Positions 18,754-33,424 of a DNA stretch of 64,000 nt are shown here, piece after piece. Every line of letters starts with the position of its first letter. Position 1 is the first letter of the stretch. The notes beneath the pieces were generated by a model. The model did not search any database. It saw only the letters and a list, made by a program, of their open reading frames with translations, and had not been told where the DNA came from. The stretch lies in the sequence record OK254197.1. One strand, given 5' to 3'. The position numbers were made by a program, and so were the translations under genes. The DNA comes from Escherichia phage PNJ1902.

Positions 18754-19071
18754 ATGACTTTTCATATTTTGATTGATGATGTGCGTAATCTTCACGGAAT
18801 GGACATTATCATTCGAACCCCAGAAGCCGCTGTAGAGTTTCTGAATAAAACTGATACCACAGGCCATTTTGTTTATATGGATAATGACTTGGCTGTAGAT
18901 GGTATGGAAGGTTATCAAATTCTTCGTTTACTCTTAGAATTTGGGCAGAGACCAAAGAAAGTGGTACTAGTAACCTCGAACCCAGTAGCTAAGCAAAATA
19001 TGCGTAATGATTTGCTTGACTTAGGGTATAAAGAAAATCCCAATCGTGTTGAATATGATTGGCAGGAGTAA
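18754..19071 (+). CDS. Hypothetical protein
   Basis: ORF track. Confidence 0.5.
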   Translation: MTFHILIDDVRNLHGMDIIIRTPEAAVEFLNKTDTTGHFVYMDNDLAVDGMEGYQILRLLLEFGQRPKKVVLVTSNPVAKQNMRNDLLDLGYKENPNRVEYDWQE

Positions 19072-19076
19072 AAAGA

Positions 19077-19526
19077 ATGAAGGCAGCTTTGCTTTTAGTA
19101 GCTGCCCTTACCTTCAGCTTTAGTAGTCAGGCATCGCACGATGCAAAAGAAATAGATTGCATTGCTAAAAATATCTATTTCGAGAGTCGTGGTGAGGGCA
19201 TAAAGGGAATGACGGCGATTGCACATGTTACTAAAAACCGTGTAAACTCCGGTAAATTCCCAGATTCCTACTGTAAAGTAGTATATCAGTCTAACCAGTT
19301 CTCTTGGGTATCTAAGAGACCAAAAGTTGATAAAACCGATGAGGCTTGGCAAACAGCCAAGAATTTAGCTAGAGTGATATACTACGTTGATTTACCACAA
19401 GATCCTACACATGGAGCACTATACTTCCATAGTGGTAAAGATAAACCTTATTGGACAAAGAAGTTTAAGAAAACAACTAAGATTAAGGGACATACGTTTT
19501 ATAAACCTGTTGTCACTAAAACTTAA
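19077..19526 (+). CDS. Secreted cell-wall hydrolase (SleB/Hydrolase_2-like), putative
   Basis: Signal-peptide-like N-terminus MKAALLLVAALTFSFSSQA; IYFESRGEG...AHV..NRV...FP...C.VV.Q.NQFSW pattern; start moved to ATG 19077. Confidence 0.55.
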   Translation: MKAALLLVAALTFSFSSQASHDAKEIDCIAKNIYFESRGEGIKGMTAIAHVTKNRVNSGKFPDSYCKVVYQSNQFSWVSKRPKVDKTDEAWQTAKNLARVIYYVDLPQDPTHGALYFHSGKDKPYWTKKFKKTTKIKGHTFYKPVVTKT

Positions 19527-20468: not shown

Positions 20469-20540
20469 GCCGTCCTAGTATAATTGGTATTATCAAGCCG
20501 TAACTGGTGGAAGATGTAGGTTCGAATCCTACGGTCGGTA
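20469..20540 (+). tRNA. Possible tRNA or tRNA-like element (anticodon not resolved)
   Basis: T-arm gtagg-ttcgaat-cctac with acceptor-like pairing; anticodon arm could not be folded by hand. Confidence 0.25.
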
Positions 20541-21151: not shown

Positions 21152-22099
21152 ATGTTTGCTACTAAAAACACTAAAGAACTGACTTATGAGCAAAAATTAA
21201 TGCGTAATATCAAACGTTGGGGTATTGGGGCTGCAGTTGGTTTGGTAGGTTTAGTTCTGGCTCTTAACTCTTACACTGTTGTTCAAGACGGTACTGTTAA
21301 AACCCAGACTTTCCTGGGTAAAGTTGACCCTAGCCCAGTATTACCCGGCTTTCATATTGTAAATCCTTTTGCTTCTTTCGATACTTTTAGTACTAAAGAT
21401 ATTGCTCTAAAATTAGATAAACTTCAGGTTCCTAGTCAGGATAAGTTTAAATCCACTGTTGACCTGACTGTTATGTTGCAGTTTGATGGTTCTAAGGCAC
21501 CGATTAACCGTATTAATGCAGGTACTCAGGATCAAGCATTAGACAAATATGTAACTGAAAAATTACTGTCTACTATTCGTGAGTTTGGTAAGTCTGTACC
21601 TAAAGCACAAGATTTATTTGATGCTAAAATTCAGGCTCAATTGCAAACCGCAATTCAACAGGAAGTTGAAGAGTATGCACGCCCATATGGTTACACAGTT
21701 AAGCAGGTGTTTCTTCAGGATATTACTTTGCCACCGGTAATCATGGAACAGGTACAGAATACCAAAGTTCGTGAAGAGCAAGTTAACGCTGCGAAAGCTG
21801 AACTTGCCCGCGTTGAACAGGAAGCACAGCAAAAAGTTAAACAAGCAGAAGCAGATCGTGAAGCTCGCAACAACCAAGCTATTGCTAATGAACGTGACGC
21901 AGATGCTAAACTGTACGCAGCTAAGAAAGAAGCTGAAGCTAACGCCGCACTGCAACGTACCATTACTCCTGAGATGATTCGTTGGAAACAACTGGAAGTT
22001 GAAATGATTCGTGCTCAGAAGTATCAAGGTGGTGTACCTCAGACTGTAGTTGGCACTGGCTATGATGGTCAAATGATTATGGATATGCGTAACAAGTAA
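21152..22099 (+). CDS. SPFH/band-7 (prohibitin/HflC-like) membrane protein
   Basis: N-terminal TM helix, SPFH-like core and C-terminal charged coiled coil (EAQQKVKQAEADREARN...). Confidence 0.5.
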   Translation: MFATKNTKELTYEQKLMRNIKRWGIGAAVGLVGLVLALNSYTVVQDGTVKTQTFLGKVDPSPVLPGFHIVNPFASFDTFSTKDIALKLDKLQVPSQDKFKSTVDLTVMLQFDGSKAPINRINAGTQDQALDKYVTEKLLSTIREFGKSVPKAQDLFDAKIQAQLQTAIQQEVEEYARPYGYTVKQVFLQDITLPPVIMEQVQNTKVREEQVNAAKAELARVEQEAQQKVKQAEADREARNNQAIANERDADAKLYAAKKEAEANAALQRTITPEMIRWKQLEVEMIRAQKYQGGVPQTVVGTGYDGQMIMDMRNK

Positions 22100-24114: not shown

Positions 24115-24633
24115 ATGAATGTTGATGAGCTAACACAGCACCTCTTATCTAGAGGATTTGATACAGATAAATATCATTGCTGGTTAAGCCCGGAAGGGTG
24201 GCTAACAGTCCCATTGTATGACTTCTCTGGGATGTTGCGGGGCTATCAGACGTATAATCCTTCTGCTCCAAAAGGGCATGGTAAGTGCCCCTTTGAGGCT
24301 AAATATTTTACCTACTCCACTACACAGTGTGTATGGGGACTAGAAACTCTCAATGGAGATGAAAAAGTAGTATTGATTGCTGAATCTGTATTTAAGGCAG
24401 TTGCATTACATAATGCTGGTTATCCAGCCCTAGCAATGTTGGGTTCTACCCCAGGAAAAGCGTTATTAAAGCAACTGAAATTACTACCTTTTAAATTGGT
24501 AGCTGTCGGGGATAATGATCCTGCGGGTGAAAAATTTGCTAGAAAATTGAACGGCTTTGTTTCTCCTGTAGATGTGGATGAGATGTCTACCGAAAACTTG
24601 AAAAATTTTCTTGCTATGAAGCTAAATTTCTAA
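24115..24633 (+). CDS. Toprim-domain protein (primase-like), putative
   Basis: VVLIAESVFKAVAL (Toprim Glu) and AVGDNDPAGEKFA (DxD) motifs. Confidence 0.45.
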   Translation: MNVDELTQHLLSRGFDTDKYHCWLSPEGWLTVPLYDFSGMLRGYQTYNPSAPKGHGKCPFEAKYFTYSTTQCVWGLETLNGDEKVVLIAESVFKAVALHNAGYPALAMLGSTPGKALLKQLKLLPFKLVAVGDNDPAGEKFARKLNGFVSPVDVDEMSTENLKNFLAMKLNF

Positions 24634-24654: not shown

Positions 24655-24743
24655 GGAAGAATAGCATAACGGTATTGCAGCAGATTGCTAATCTGTCGGT
24701 TTGAAATATAGCCTTGTGGGTTCGATTCCCACTTCTTCCGCCA
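24655..24743 (+). tRNA. tRNA-Ser (anticodon GCU), class II
   Basis: Acceptor ggaagaa/ttcttcc, T-arm gtggg-ttcgatt-cccac, anticodon loop ttgctaa, long variable arm, encoded CCA. Confidence 0.65.
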
Positions 24744-24749
24744 GATTTT

Positions 24750-24827
24750 GGTTCTCAAGCTCATATGGTATGAGCACCCGGCTCATAACCGGAAGGTACG
24801 TAGGTTCGAATCCTCGGGGAGCCACCA
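24750..24827 (+). tRNA. tRNA with CAU anticodon (Met or Ile2)
   Basis: Acceptor ggttctc/gggagcc, D-arm gctc...gagc, anticodon loop ctcataa; T-stem partly mismatched. Confidence 0.5.
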
Positions 24828-29088: not shown

Positions 29089-29107
29089 ATTTCAAGAAAA
29101 ACGCAGT

Positions 29108-29135
29108 TGCTTGATGCTTAATTTCTTGTTATAAT
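29108..29135 (+). promoter_or_regulatory. sigma70-type promoter (TTGCTT-16-TATAAT)
   Basis: Read from sequence. Confidence 0.5.
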
Positions 29136-29182
29136 ATTTATATAAATTGATGAGGAGAGATCCTCATCATAGTTCACTAAGG

Positions 29183-29350
29183 TATTAGCTCGACCTAGGA
29201 CTGGCTGCCAAAAAGCACGATCCCTTCTACTTGGGAGAAGTTCTAGATTAGTCCACTAGATTCAGCGGCAACTGAATAGTGTATCGGGTTTGCGAGATGA
29301 CGCAGTTCCTTCCGCTCGAAGCGAAGGTGCTGTAGTTACGCCGAGCTAAT
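29183..29350 (+). ncRNA. Candidate structured RNA closed by 9-bp terminal helix
   Basis: attagctcg...cgagctaat complementarity; multiple internal hairpins; no ORF. Confidence 0.25.
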
Positions 29351-29373
29351 AGCCTTAGTAAACTAAAGATTTT

Positions 29374-29448
29374 GGGCGGTTAGTTTATCTGGGAAAATAC
29401 CTGACTTGCACTCAGGAGTGAGGAGTTCGACTCTCCTACTGTCCACCA
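29374..29448 (+). tRNA. tRNA-Ala (anticodon UGC)
   Basis: Anticodon stem cctga/tcagg, loop cttgcac, T-arm aggag-ttcgact-ctcct, CCA. Confidence 0.65.
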
Positions 29449-29466
29449 AATTAAAGGGTATGTAGT

Positions 29467-29967
29467 ATGAAGGTAGCTAAAAATGGGAGAAAAGATAACT
29501 TAAATGAGTTAGAAATATTCCTCCACAATAACAAACTAGACGTAACCGCTAGTAATTACATGCAAATAGCTCTATGGTATAATGGGTATATAGTTAGGAA
29601 GGCCAATCCTAGTAAGGATAAGAAGTCAAATACATACCAAAAGAGACTAGAGCATAGCTATCAAAGATCCCTAAGAGTAGTACAGCTTTATTGTTATATC
29701 AATAATATAAATAATAAGCTGGGATATATTTATATAATATCTAATCCAGCTTTTCCAGGCTGGTTTAAAGTAGGAGCAGCCAAAGATGCTGAGACTAGAT
29801 TAAATACCTATCAAACATACTCCCCTTTTCGGGACTATGTATTAGAGTATTATAAACTAGTAGATAATTATGAACTCAAAGAAAAAGAAATCCTAAGTTC
29901 TTTTTCATCTAGAAATAATGAGTGGGTTCATGCTCCACTTGAAGAAATAATTGCTTGCGTGGCGTAA
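29467..29967 (+). CDS. GIY-YIG / T5orf172-type nuclease-domain protein (homing-endonuclease-like)
   Basis: GYIYIISNPAFPGWFKVGAAKD...R...Y..Y...E motif; 3' end overlaps tRNA-Leu by about 15 nt. Confidence 0.5.
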   Translation: MKVAKNGRKDNLNELEIFLHNNKLDVTASNYMQIALWYNGYIVRKANPSKDKKSNTYQKRLEHSYQRSLRVVQLYCYINNINNKLGYIYIISNPAFPGWFKVGAAKDAETRLNTYQTYSPFRDYVLEYYKLVDNYELKEKEILSSFSSRNNEWVHAPLEEIIACVA

Positions 29968-30035
29968 TTGGTAGACGCGCGATCCTTAGGAGTTCGTGTT
30001 AATTCGTGTGGGTTCGAGTCCCTCCGCAAGCACCA
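29953..30035 (+). tRNA. tRNA-Leu (anticodon UAG), class II
   Basis: Acceptor gcttgcg/cgcaagc, D-loop aattggtagac, anticodon loop cttagga, long variable arm, CCA. Confidence 0.65.
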
Positions 30036-30039
30036 AATT

Positions 30040-30112
30040 TGATGGTCAGAGTAAATTAAACCTACTATCTCGGTTGAGCTGTTTTAATGGGTTCGAATCC
30101 CAGCGAGGCGTA
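30040..30112 (+). tRNA. Possible degenerate tRNA or pseudo-tRNA
   Basis: T-arm-like tggg-ttcgaat-ccca but no complementary acceptor strand found. Confidence 0.2.
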
Positions 30113-30147
30113 ACTGCCTGGTGTGATAGGGGCATCATCTTATTATT

Positions 30148-30238
30148 GGAAGAGCAAATCGAATTGGCGACGAAAACCGCTTGGAAAGTGGCTGACTGGT
30201 AAAACGGCTTGAGAGTTCAAATCTCTCCTCTTCCGCCA
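30148..30238 (+). tRNA. tRNA-Ser (anticodon GGA), class II
   Basis: Acceptor ggaagag/ctcttcc, anticodon loop ttggaaa, T-arm gagag-ttcaaat-ctctc, CCA. Confidence 0.65.
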
Positions 30239-30250
30239 AACAATTTATAT

Positions 30251-30345
30251 GGTAGGTCAATCCAACGGCTGGCGCTGGACTCCGACTTGAAATCGGTTGA
30301 TCGTAGTGATACGGTGTAAGGGTTCGATCCCCTTACCTACCTCCA
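30251..30345 (+). tRNA. tRNA-Ser (anticodon UGA), class II
   Basis: Acceptor ggtaggt/acctacc, anticodon loop cttgaaa, T-arm aaggg-ttcgatc-ccctt, CCA. Confidence 0.6.
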
Positions 30346-31178: not shown

Positions 31179-31186
31179 AACAATAA

Positions 31187-31262
31187 GCGGTTAAGCACAC
31201 GGGTTGTGCCGCAGGCCTTCCAAGCCTCGCTGAGTAGGGTTCGATTCCCTCTAGCCGCTCCA
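31187..31262 (+). tRNA. tRNA-Gly (anticodon UCC)
   Basis: Acceptor gcggtta/tagccgc, loop cttccaa, T-arm taggg-ttcgatt-ccctc, CCA. Confidence 0.55.
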
Positions 31263-33055: not shown

Positions 33056-33424
33056 ATGAAAGCATATCAAAATCTTAAATCTGGCGTAATTAACCTTGTT
33101 CATGAAAATCAGATTATTCAGCTATACTCCGACAATGGTGAACTTAAACAGAAAGTTCTAGTTGAAGATCTAGAAGGTATCACACCACAATTCGATCCCG
33201 AAGCCTTCCGTGAAGTCAAAGTGGAAGTCGCCCCTCAAATCGAAGGTGGTCAGCACCTAAATGTCAATGTGTTAAGCCGTGATCAGCTTTTGGATGCGCA
33301 GAAACATCCTGAAAAATATCCTCAGTTGACCATCCGTGTTTCCGGGTACGCTGTACGTTTTAATGCACTGACTCGTGAACAGCAGAACGACGTTATTAGT
33401 CGTACATTTACTCAGGCGATGTAA
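33056..33424 (+). CDS. grcA: Autonomous glycyl-radical cofactor (GrcA/YfiD-like)
   Basis: C-terminal half [11 protein letters not shown]...[37 protein letters not shown] closely matches the E. coli YfiD/GrcA sequence as I recall it, including the RVSGY glycyl-radical motif. Confidence 0.8.

What the first reader, a model, noticed from the sequence alone, without database searches (positions are those of the whole stretch)
29467..30035. GIY-YIG/T5orf172-type nuclease gene embedded in the tRNA cluster and overlapping tRNA-Leu
The 166-aa ORF has a GIY-YIG-like core and its last codons overlap the 5' acceptor stem of tRNA-Leu (29953-30035). This is consistent with a mobile homing-endonuclease insertion into a tRNA operon, or with coupled regulation where tRNA processing truncates the mRNA.
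Basis: partly seen in the sequence, partly recalled or inferred. Interest (0 to 1): 0.5.

Follow-up and report, generated by a model that had tools for sequence, protein, structure and literature searches.

The report
Homing-type nuclease gene between phage tRNAs
A small, selfish-looking nuclease gene sits between two tRNA genes of a T5-like phage, borrows its stop codon from the next tRNA and always travels with its own version of that tRNA; this is a clear but expected example of a kind of mobile gene already known from phages T4 and T5.

Summary
A 166-aa ORF (29467-29967, +) runs 15 nt into tRNA-Leu(TAG) (29953-30035). The window is a T5-like phage (Tequintavirus). The protein is a genuine T5orf172 (GIY-YIG superfamily) nuclease: it passes the Pfam cutoff, keeps the catalytic residues invariant, has a GIY-YIG-like predicted fold, and is under strong purifying selection (dN/dS 0.06).

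Comparative evidence supports a free-standing homing endonuclease. The ORF is in only 13 of 474 related phage records. Genomes without it are just as similar in the flanks. The insertion point is exact (tRNA-Ala CCA-AAT^). An unrelated HNH endonuclease related to T5 F-TflIV fills the same gap in other phages.

The variable unit is 29452-30029: Shine-Dalgarno spacer, ORF and a private tRNA-Leu allele found only with this ORF. The upstream tRNA-Ala allele is not linked.

Full-length relatives occupy at least 12 different tRNA gaps. They often start 15-18 nt after one tRNA and stop inside the next.

The idea that RNase P processing removes the stop codon is plausible but untested, and was already proposed for T4 SegB and the T5 F-Tfl enzymes. 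Verdict: a new member of a known kind, of modest interest.

The parts
29374..29448 (+). tRNA-Ala(TGC), the upstream neighbour. Its allele is NOT linked to the ORF.
   Evidence: ARAGORN; Rfam 54.8 bits. The same allele occurs with the HNH occupant (Kenya-K16) and with an empty gap (smaug). Five ORF-bearing records carry the EC100-type tRNA-Ala instead.
29452..30029 (+). Variable module of 578 nt (SD spacer + ORF + private tRNA-Leu allele). It replaces 73 nt (AC + tRNA-Leu positions 1-71) of the empty-site allele.
   Evidence: Base-by-base comparison with EC100 from both sides; alignments A1 and A3; junction sequences. GC of the whole module is 35%, against 42% in the flanks.
29452..29466 (+). 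15-nt leader carrying the Shine-Dalgarno sequence (AAAGGG, 29453-29458), 8 nt before the ATG. No sequestering hairpin.
   Evidence: Sequence. Fold energy is -4.7 kcal/mol with z = -0.2 against shuffles. Comparable 13-18-nt SD-only leaders follow a tRNA CCA in relatives.
29467..29967 (+). 166-aa T5orf172 (GIY-YIG superfamily) endonuclease gene, a putative free-standing homing endonuclease.
29467..29721 (+). N-terminal domain (aa 1-85): three long helices, no Zn-finger, no Pfam match. Presumed DNA-binding/targeting domain.
29722..29964 (+). T5orf172 nuclease domain (aa 86-166) with invariant G86, Y89, K101, G103, R111, E139, E152, W153.
29953..29967 (+). 15-nt ORF/tRNA overlap. Codons Ala-Cys-Val-Ala-stop are the same bases as tRNA-Leu positions 1-15.
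   Evidence: The 15 nt are identical in the 87% homologue although dS is about 1. In the 57% homologue G7->A7 is compensated by C->T on the 3' strand and changes Val to Met.
29953..30035 (+). tRNA-Leu(TAG), 83-nt allele strictly linked to the ORF.
   Evidence: ARAGORN; Rfam 51.1 bits. 100% identical in exactly the 13 ORF-bearing records, with the next best match about 82%. It co-diverges with the ORF.

Best explanation
This is a free-standing homing-type endonuclease gene of the T5orf172 branch of the GIY-YIG superfamily. It lies in the 5-nt spacer between tRNA-Ala and tRNA-Leu of a T5-like phage. Inferred mechanism: during co-infection with a relative that lacks the gene, the nuclease cuts the ORF-less allele in or near tRNA-Leu or the Ala/Leu junction. 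The break is then repaired from the ORF-bearing genome, which copies in the ORF together with its own diverged tRNA-Leu allele. That allele is presumed to resist cleavage. It must be inherited whole, because the ORF's last five codons are the tRNA's 5' acceptor strand and D-stem, and these have to match the tRNA's 3' strand. The gene has no promoter, terminator or stop codon of its own. It is probably translated from the polycistronic tRNA precursor using only a 15-nt Shine-Dalgarno leader, and it terminates at tRNA-Leu positions 13-15. A consequence, inferred and not shown, is that RNase P cleavage at the tRNA 5' end would remove the stop codon. Full-length protein could then be made only before processing, which would keep the level of a potentially toxic nuclease low. 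Shown here: nuclease family membership, intact catalytic residues, purifying selection, presence/absence polymorphism, exact boundaries, strict linkage to the tRNA-Leu allele, an independent HNH occupant of the same gap, and family-wide residence in tRNA gaps. Inferred: DNA cleavage, the target site, homing, and the RNase P effect.
Against: No cleavage, target site or gene-conversion event has been observed for this protein or for any member of its subfamily. The nuclease could be a passenger of ordinary recombination in a very mosaic region. Purifying selection and family membership are equally expected for a domesticated nuclease. The divergence of the tRNA-Leu allele could reflect only the donor lineage, and not immunity to cleavage. 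ORFs in these tRNA clusters are tightly packed in general: non-nuclease ORFs in the window end 1-12 nt before the next tRNA. The overlap may therefore be simple compaction and not regulation. Four of the 13 family contexts do not have the stop within 20 nt of a downstream tRNA (SB13 #2/SB9, P0023, P0016) or lack a close tRNA on one side.
Confidence: 0.7

Rival explanations
1. RNase P-coupled expression control is the main significance of the overlap. On this view the stop codon lies inside the tRNA because selection favours a gene whose mRNA loses its stop codon when tRNA-Leu is matured. That gives a non-stop mRNA, tmRNA tagging and a low protein level. This complements the homing model and does not exclude it.
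For: The geometry is shown directly: the stop is at tRNA positions 13-15. The overlap is kept at 87% and 57% protein identity. Overlaps of 10-43 nt arose at other tRNAs, and two HNH genes stop at tRNA positions 4-7. There is no own terminator, and promoter-like sites are not above chance. The same mechanism was proposed for T4 SegB and the T5 F-Tfl enzymes (PMC2330249).
Against: No RNA end data were found. Several family members end at or 4-16 nt before the tRNA with their own stop codon, and two contexts have no tRNA nearby downstream, so the overlap is not required. General compaction of these clusters predicts occasional overlaps. The conserved U8 and A14 make stop codons at positions 8-10 and 13-15 easy to obtain by chance.
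Confidence: 0.35
2. Passive passenger: the ORF + tRNA-Leu block is one more variable cassette that ordinary homologous recombination shuffles among co-infecting T5-like phages. On this view the nuclease does not promote its own spread.
For: The whole tRNA region is mosaic. There are three tRNA-Ala alleles, at least five tRNA-Leu alleles, and extra tRNA-Val/CDS insertions in ABTNLsp9. The upstream tRNA-Ala allele reassorts independently of the gap occupant.
Against: Two unrelated nuclease families occupy the same gap. The subfamily sits in at least 12 different tRNA gaps. The catalytic residues are invariant and under purifying selection. This recurrence is what nuclease-driven insertion predicts.
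Confidence: 0.15
3. Domesticated nuclease: the protein serves the phage (excluding competitor phages, attacking satellites or host DNA, or regulating the tRNA operon) and no longer homes.
For: The T5orf172 nuclease Odn of ICP1 is such a domesticated, sequence-specific weapon (PMC8263062). The ORF shows strong purifying selection on both domains.
Against: The gene is absent from about 97% of otherwise near-identical relatives, which argues against an important phage function. Its position and boundaries look like an insertion, not a conserved operon member.
Confidence: 0.1

Closest known systems
T4 SegB (free-standing GIY-YIG homing endonuclease in the T4 tRNA gene cluster; PMC2330249)
   Same: GIY-YIG-superfamily nuclease gene lying between tRNA genes. 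It is absent from close relatives (T2L, RB1, RB3). Its target lies within a tRNA gene, and flanking tRNA genes are co-inherited. Its ORF ends right at the downstream tRNA, and tRNA maturation was proposed to cut the mRNA between the last codon and the stop codon.
   Different: SegB belongs to the canonical GIY-YIG/Seg family. This protein matches only T5orf172/MUG113 and has an unrelated three-helix N-terminal domain. Here the stop lies 13-15 nt inside the tRNA. No RBS-sequestering hairpin like the one proposed for segB was found. SegB activity and homing were demonstrated; nothing has been demonstrated here.
T5 F-TflI/II/IV (hegA etc.), HNH site-specific endonucleases encoded in the T5 tRNA region (Akulenko et al. 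2004, as cited in PMC2330249 and PMC10644984)
   Same: Same phage group and the same tRNA-cluster habitat. A homologue 62% identical to hegA/F-TflIV occupies exactly the same Ala/Leu gap in other phages and also takes its stop codon from tRNA-Leu.
   Different: Unrelated fold and catalytic motif (HNH; BLASTP E=0.015 over 41 aa). The OSY-STA-type HNH gene is a clean insertion that leaves both tRNAs unchanged. The T5orf172 gene always comes with a replaced tRNA-Leu.
T5orf172 homing endonuclease genes of ICP1 and other phages (Barth et al. 2023, PMC10448857), and the T5orf172 nuclease Odn (PMC8263062)
   Same: Same nuclease domain. That paper reports these genes as abundant in T5-like phages and as lying at boundaries of genetic exchange. 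Here the left boundary is a recombination point between independently assorting tRNA-Ala alleles and gap occupants.
   Different: Most T5orf172 HEGs in that survey carry CapR/DUF723/DUF4397 Zn-finger DNA-binding domains and sit near terminase, RNR or capsid genes. This subfamily has a Cys-poor helical N-domain and lives in tRNA gaps. As far as the passages I read show, that paper does not describe a tRNA-gap habit.
I-TevI (intron-encoded GIY-YIG homing endonuclease)
   Different: I-TevI is intron-encoded with an N-terminal nuclease and a C-terminal DNA-binding domain. Here the gene is free-standing with the opposite domain order.

Membership tests
T5orf172 (PF10544) / GIY-YIG superfamily | Profile match above the curated threshold | tested here: met
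   41.9 bits against a cutoff of 20, E=1.5e-10, profile positions 1-97 of 101. PHROG 5032 at E=6.6e-33.
T5orf172 (PF10544) / GIY-YIG superfamily | Conserved catalytic motif residues (GIY Tyr, YIG-equivalent, Arg, Glu) | tested here: met
   G86, Y89, K101, G103, R111, E139, E152 and W153 are invariant in 32 sequences. The equivalence to I-TevI Y/R/E and Odn E180 is by motif position (inference), not by superposition.
T5orf172 (PF10544) / GIY-YIG superfamily | GIY-YIG alpha/beta fold | tested here: met
T5orf172 (PF10544) / GIY-YIG superfamily | Endonuclease activity | not testable with these tools
   Shown experimentally only for another T5orf172 protein, Odn (PMC8263062).
Free-standing homing endonuclease gene (intronless homing) | Sporadic presence among otherwise near-identical genomes, with empty-site alleles | tested here: met
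   13 of 474 records. Empty alleles in EC100, GSP044 and 8sent1748 have flanks 94.8-98.5% identical to the window.
Free-standing homing endonuclease gene (intronless homing) | Defined intergenic insertion point | tested here: met
   CCA-AAT^ at 29451/29452, the same point as the HNH insertion.
Free-standing homing endonuclease gene (intronless homing) | Nuclease cleaves the gene-less allele near the insertion site, while its own allele is resistant | not testable with these tools
   Consistent observation only: the ORF-linked tRNA-Leu is about 65% identical to the resident allele and is strictly linked to the ORF.
Free-standing homing endonuclease gene (intronless homing) | Nuclease-dependent unidirectional gene conversion with co-conversion of flanks in mixed infection | not testable with these tools
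   Requires phage crosses.
T4 Seg family (canonical GIY-YIG, PF01541) | Match to the canonical GIY-YIG profile or Seg proteins | tested here: not met
   The Pfam scan at E<=1 lists only T5orf172 and MUG113 as nuclease families. A profile search of PDB sequences found nothing. It works like SegB but is not a Seg family member.
CapR/DUF723-type T5orf172 HEGs (Barth et al. 2023) | Zn-finger (CxxC...CxC) DNA-binding repeats next to the T5orf172 domain | tested here: not met
   The protein has only two Cys (C75, C164) and no CxxC motif (sequence). There is no Pfam hit in aa 1-85. The model shows a three-helix domain.
tRNA (RF00005), for the overlapped gene | Covariance-model score above the gathering threshold, cloverleaf called, stems maintained in evolution | tested here: met
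   51.1 bits against 29; ARAGORN tRNA-Leu TAG; compensatory 7:66 G-C to A-T change and 27:43 C-G to T-A change in the 57% lineage.

The most novel reading that the evidence does not exclude
The full-length subfamily (helical N-domain + T5orf172) may be a lineage of homing endonucleases specialised for tRNA gene arrays. On this reading its N-terminal domain recognises tRNA-gene DNA. It inserts a minimal SD+ORF cassette into inter-tRNA spacers. It uses the next tRNA both as its terminator and stop codon and as obligatory cargo. It would thereby drive exchange of tRNA alleles among Demerecviridae, possibly alleles that differ in function: the ORF-linked tRNA-Leu has an 83-nt class-II-like shape with G37, against a 77-nt short-arm allele with A37. 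Nuclease dosage would be set by a race between translation and RNase P.
Probability: 0.25. Interest if true: 0.55.

Novelty: new member of a known kind. Interest (0 to 1): 0.3.

Why it matters
It adds a well-delimited T5orf172 example to the short list of homing-type nucleases living in phage tRNA clusters (T4 SegB, T5 F-Tfl). It shows that a nuclease gene can be welded to a private tRNA allele by sharing 15 nt with it, so that spread of the nuclease also spreads a tRNA variant. This could contribute to the diversification of phage tRNA sets, which are now being discussed as counter-defences against host tRNA-cleaving nucleases (cited in PMC10644984). There is also a practical point. In 9 of the 13 public records with this gene, no CDS is annotated under it and only tRNA-Leu is listed. 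A likely reason, which is my inference, is that gene callers avoid CDSs that overlap tRNAs, so such genes would be under-counted. Beyond that, the finding fits established knowledge.

Tried and rejected
(1) I first took tRNA-Ala' as part of the cassette. I rejected this: five ORF-bearing records carry the EC100-type tRNA-Ala, and the window-type tRNA-Ala occurs with the HNH gene or an empty gap.

(2) I tested whether tRNA association is a property of T5orf172 domains in general. It is not: about 70 environmental hits that match only the nuclease domain have no same-strand tRNA within 2 kb. The habit belongs to the full-length subfamily.

(3) I looked for an RBS-sequestering hairpin like the one proposed for segB. 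None was found (-4.7 kcal/mol, z = -0.2).

(4) I looked for an own promoter or terminator. Promoter-like sites number 21 against 24.3 expected by chance, and there is no + strand terminator-like site between 28400 and 30400.

(5) A sequence search of PDB with the family profile gave no hits, so I used a fold comparison instead.

(6) The word-index homologue search gave only 6 hits. The exhaustive search gave 1161.

(7) The search for related loci with the 32-sequence alignment failed for lack of a conserved stretch. A 9-sequence alignment worked.

(8) Literature searches for RNA-level evidence on T5 tRNA-region processing, or on RNase P/non-stop control of phage HEGs, found nothing beyond the SegB discussion.

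(9) I considered a pseudogene or decaying HEG and rejected it: dN/dS is 0.064 and the catalytic residues are intact.

Full report
**1. What is there**

The window comes from a T5-like phage (Demerecviridae, Tequintavirus). The 2.3 kb around the finding match 474 phage records. The best matches are Salmonella phages ABTNLsp9 and SE11 and phage NBEco002, at 96-99% identity.

The ORF at 29467-29967 (+, 166 aa) and tRNA-Leu(TAG) at 29953-30035 are both real. Rfam scores the tRNA at 51.1 bits against a cutoff of 29. The two genes share 15 nt, GCTTGCGTGGCGTAA. The last four codons (Ala-Cys-Val-Ala) and the stop codon are tRNA positions 1-15, and TAA is positions 13-15. The start codon is supported by AAAGGG 8 nt upstream and by a nearly invariant Met-Lys N-terminus in homologues.

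**2. The protein is an intact GIY-YIG-superfamily nuclease**

- Pfam T5orf172 matches aa 86-165 at 41.9 bits (cutoff 20), and MUG113 also matches. PHROG 5032 covers aa 25-159 at E=6.6e-33.
- An exhaustive search finds 1161 cluster representatives at E<=1e-3.
- In a 32-sequence alignment, G86, Y89, K101, G103, R111, E139, E152 and W153 are invariant. This is the GIY / YIG-equivalent / Arg / Glu set.
- AlphaFold gives a confident model (pLDDT 95.2). It has an N-terminal three-helix domain and a C-terminal alpha/beta domain.
- The N-terminal domain has no Pfam match and no zinc-finger cysteines. It gives only weak winged-helix/HTH-like structural hits.
- Against an 87%-identical homologue, dN/dS is 0.064 with dS about 1. 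The gene is therefore maintained by selection and is not decaying.
- A different T5orf172 protein, ICP1 Odn, has been shown to cleave DNA sequence-specifically, dependent on the conserved Glu (PMC8263062).

**3. It behaves like an insertion**

A copy at 95% identity or more exists in only 13 records, which are 10 distinct genomes once RefSeq duplicates are removed. The next best relatives are at or below 44% identity.

ORF-less phages EC100, GSP044 and 8sent1748 have tRNA-Ala followed 5 nt later by a 77-nt tRNA-Leu. Their flanks are 97.9-98.5% identical to the window for EC100 and GSP044. That is at least as close as the ORF-bearing K18 and NBEco002, at 95.4-98%.

Base-by-base comparison places the variable block at 29452-30029 (578 nt). 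It replaces 73 nt of the empty allele. The left junction is ...CCA-AAT^, and homology resumes at the last six bases of tRNA-Leu (GCACCA). The ORF is 32% GC, against 42% in the flanks.

**4. The linked tRNA**

The 83-nt tRNA-Leu allele is 100% identical in exactly the 13 ORF-bearing records. Nothing else in the collection exceeds about 82% identity to it.

In metagenomic homologues at 87% and 57% protein identity, the downstream tRNA-Leu belongs to the same lineage (acceptor stem GCTTGC-R). It diverges in step with the ORF. In the 57% homologue, G7 to A7 is compensated by C to T on the 3' strand, and this change turns Val into Met in the protein tail. ORF and tRNA are therefore an old unit, and the shared 15 nt evolve under tRNA rules.

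The upstream tRNA-Ala allele is not part of the unit. K18, STP-SP2, SESL and NBEco002 carry the ORF behind the EC100-type tRNA-Ala. The window-type tRNA-Ala occurs in Kenya-K16 (HNH occupant) and in smaug (empty gap).

A simple reason for the sharp right boundary is the following, which is inference. A crossover inside the tRNA would pair the ORF-encoded 5' acceptor strand with a non-matching 3' strand. In addition, the two tRNA-Leu alleles are too different (about 65% identity) for homologous exchange.

**5. An independent invader of the same gap**

In Kenya-K16 and about 19 other records, an unrelated HNH endonuclease of 153 aa occupies the same gap. It is 62% identical to T5 hegA/F-TflIV.

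In OSY-STA, CitS1, EH2 and EH5 it is a clean insertion of about 464 bp at AAT^AC. Both tRNAs there are 100% identical to the empty allele, and its stop codon TGA is tRNA-Leu positions 4-6. In K16 the HNH gene comes with another tRNA-Leu allele and stops at positions 5-7.

Two nuclease families using one 5-nt spacer is what homing-type insertion predicts.

**6. A family habit**

I located family ORFs with an HMM and tRNAs with ARAGORN in all fetched loci, and added seven members chosen from the exhaustive search without regard to context. Of those seven, six had DNA available. P0007 lies in the same kind of gap as SB13 #2 (after tRNA-Leu), so it adds no new context. This gives 13 distinct contexts for full-length relatives:

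- 12 lie in tRNA clusters.
- 7 start 15-18 nt after an upstream tRNA's CCA, with only a Shine-Dalgarno sequence in between.
- 6 stop inside the next tRNA, with overlaps of 10, 10, 15, 15, 22 and 43 nt into Lys, Leu, Leu, Gln, Glu and Ser.
- 1 abuts the next tRNA, and 3 end 4-16 nt before it.

About 70 environmental hits that match only the nuclease domain have no tRNAs nearby. The tRNA-gap habit therefore belongs to this subfamily, and presumably to its N-terminal domain.

A caveat applies. Non-nuclease ORFs in these clusters are also tightly packed. In the window they end 1-12 nt before the next tRNA. Stop codons at tRNA positions 8-10 and 13-15 are also easy to obtain, because U8 and A14 are conserved.

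**7. Expression**

There is no RBS-sequestering hairpin. Promoter-like sites are not above chance, and there is no + strand terminator-like site nearby. The gene is most likely read from the polycistronic tRNA precursor.

RNase P cleavage at 29952/29953 would leave a non-stop mRNA. This is a logical consequence of the geometry. It is untested, and I found no RNA data.

**8. Comparison with what is known**

The closest analogue is T4 SegB. It is a free-standing GIY-YIG homing endonuclease in the T4 tRNA cluster and is absent from T2L, RB1 and RB3. It cuts inside tRNA genes and drives preferential inheritance of the tRNA region. Its authors already proposed that tRNA-Arg maturation cuts segB mRNA between the last codon and the stop codon, and they extended the idea to the T5 F-Tfl endonucleases (PMC2330249).

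T5orf172 HEGs are reported as abundant in T5-like phages and as marking recombination boundaries (PMC10448857). HEGs are named as the main source of local differences among T5-like genomes (PMC10644984).

The present gene is not a Seg family member, since it has no canonical GIY-YIG profile match. It also lacks the Zn-finger DNA-binding domains typical of the T5orf172 HEGs surveyed by Barth et al.

**9. Verdict**

The gene is a new member of a known kind. It has two modestly new aspects: strict coupling to a private tRNA allele through a shared 15 nt, and a subfamily-wide preference for inter-tRNA gaps with stop codons borrowed from the next tRNA. Cleavage, the target site, homing and RNase P control all remain to be shown experimentally.

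Noticed in passing
window 30148-30239 (+): A sequence that aligns along its whole length to tRNA-Ser(GGA) genes called in Kenya-K16, L014 and My1. The anticodon loop TTGGAAA is intact and the 3' end is CCGCCA. Neither ARAGORN nor the Rfam E-value scan called it in the window. It is probably an unannotated tRNA-Ser(GGA), or a slightly degenerate one.
   Followed up: partly
window 30251-30341, 24750-24824, 20469-20540, 31186-31259 (+): Rfam finds tRNA or tRNA-Sec-like matches (31-40 bits) that ARAGORN missed. The one at 30251-30341 corresponds to the tRNA-Ser(TGA) annotated in ABTNLsp9 and GSP044. The cluster therefore holds more than the 21 tRNAs listed.
   Followed up: partly
L001:1154-1230 (EC100) and equivalents, versus window 29953-30035: The resident 'empty-site' tRNA-Leu(TAG) is only 77 nt, with a 5-nt variable loop and A37. 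That is a class-I-like shape, unusual for a bacterial-type tRNA-Leu. The ORF-linked allele is 83 nt with G37, and other relatives have 85-86-nt alleles. All score as tRNAs at 47.5-53 bits. Whether they differ in charging or decoding is unknown.
   Followed up: partly
window 24115-24633 (+): A 172-aa ORF with a Toprim-like domain (PF13155, 24.9 bits against a cutoff of 22.1) ends 21 nt before tRNA-Ser(GCT) at 24655. It may be another small nuclease-type gene embedded in the tRNA cluster.
   Followed up: no
public records matching window 29467-29967: In 9 of the 13 records that contain this ORF, no CDS is annotated under it and only tRNA-Leu is listed. A plausible cause (my inference) is that annotation pipelines suppress CDSs that overlap tRNAs.
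   Followed up: partly
L003:793-1245 (ABTNLsp9), versus window ~29089-29373: ABTNLsp9 has an extra tRNA-Val and a 118-aa CDS after tRNA-Lys that the window lacks. SB13 and L014 have a second T5orf172 paralogue overlapping tRNA-Lys by 10 nt. The Lys-Ala interval is therefore another indel hotspot.
   Followed up: no
window 30036-30147 (+): The stretch just after tRNA-Leu contains a T-arm-like GGGTTCGAATCCC (about 30091-30103) but no callable tRNA. It may be a tRNA remnant. It is shared with ORF-less relatives.
   Followed up: no
window 19059-19526, 21152-22099, 33056-33424 (+): Neighbouring ORFs match cell-wall hydrolase (PF07486), SPFH/Band 7 (PF01145) and a glycine-radical domain (PF01228, a GrcA-like spare part). 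These are ordinary T5-like accessory genes flanking the tRNA cluster.
   Followed up: no
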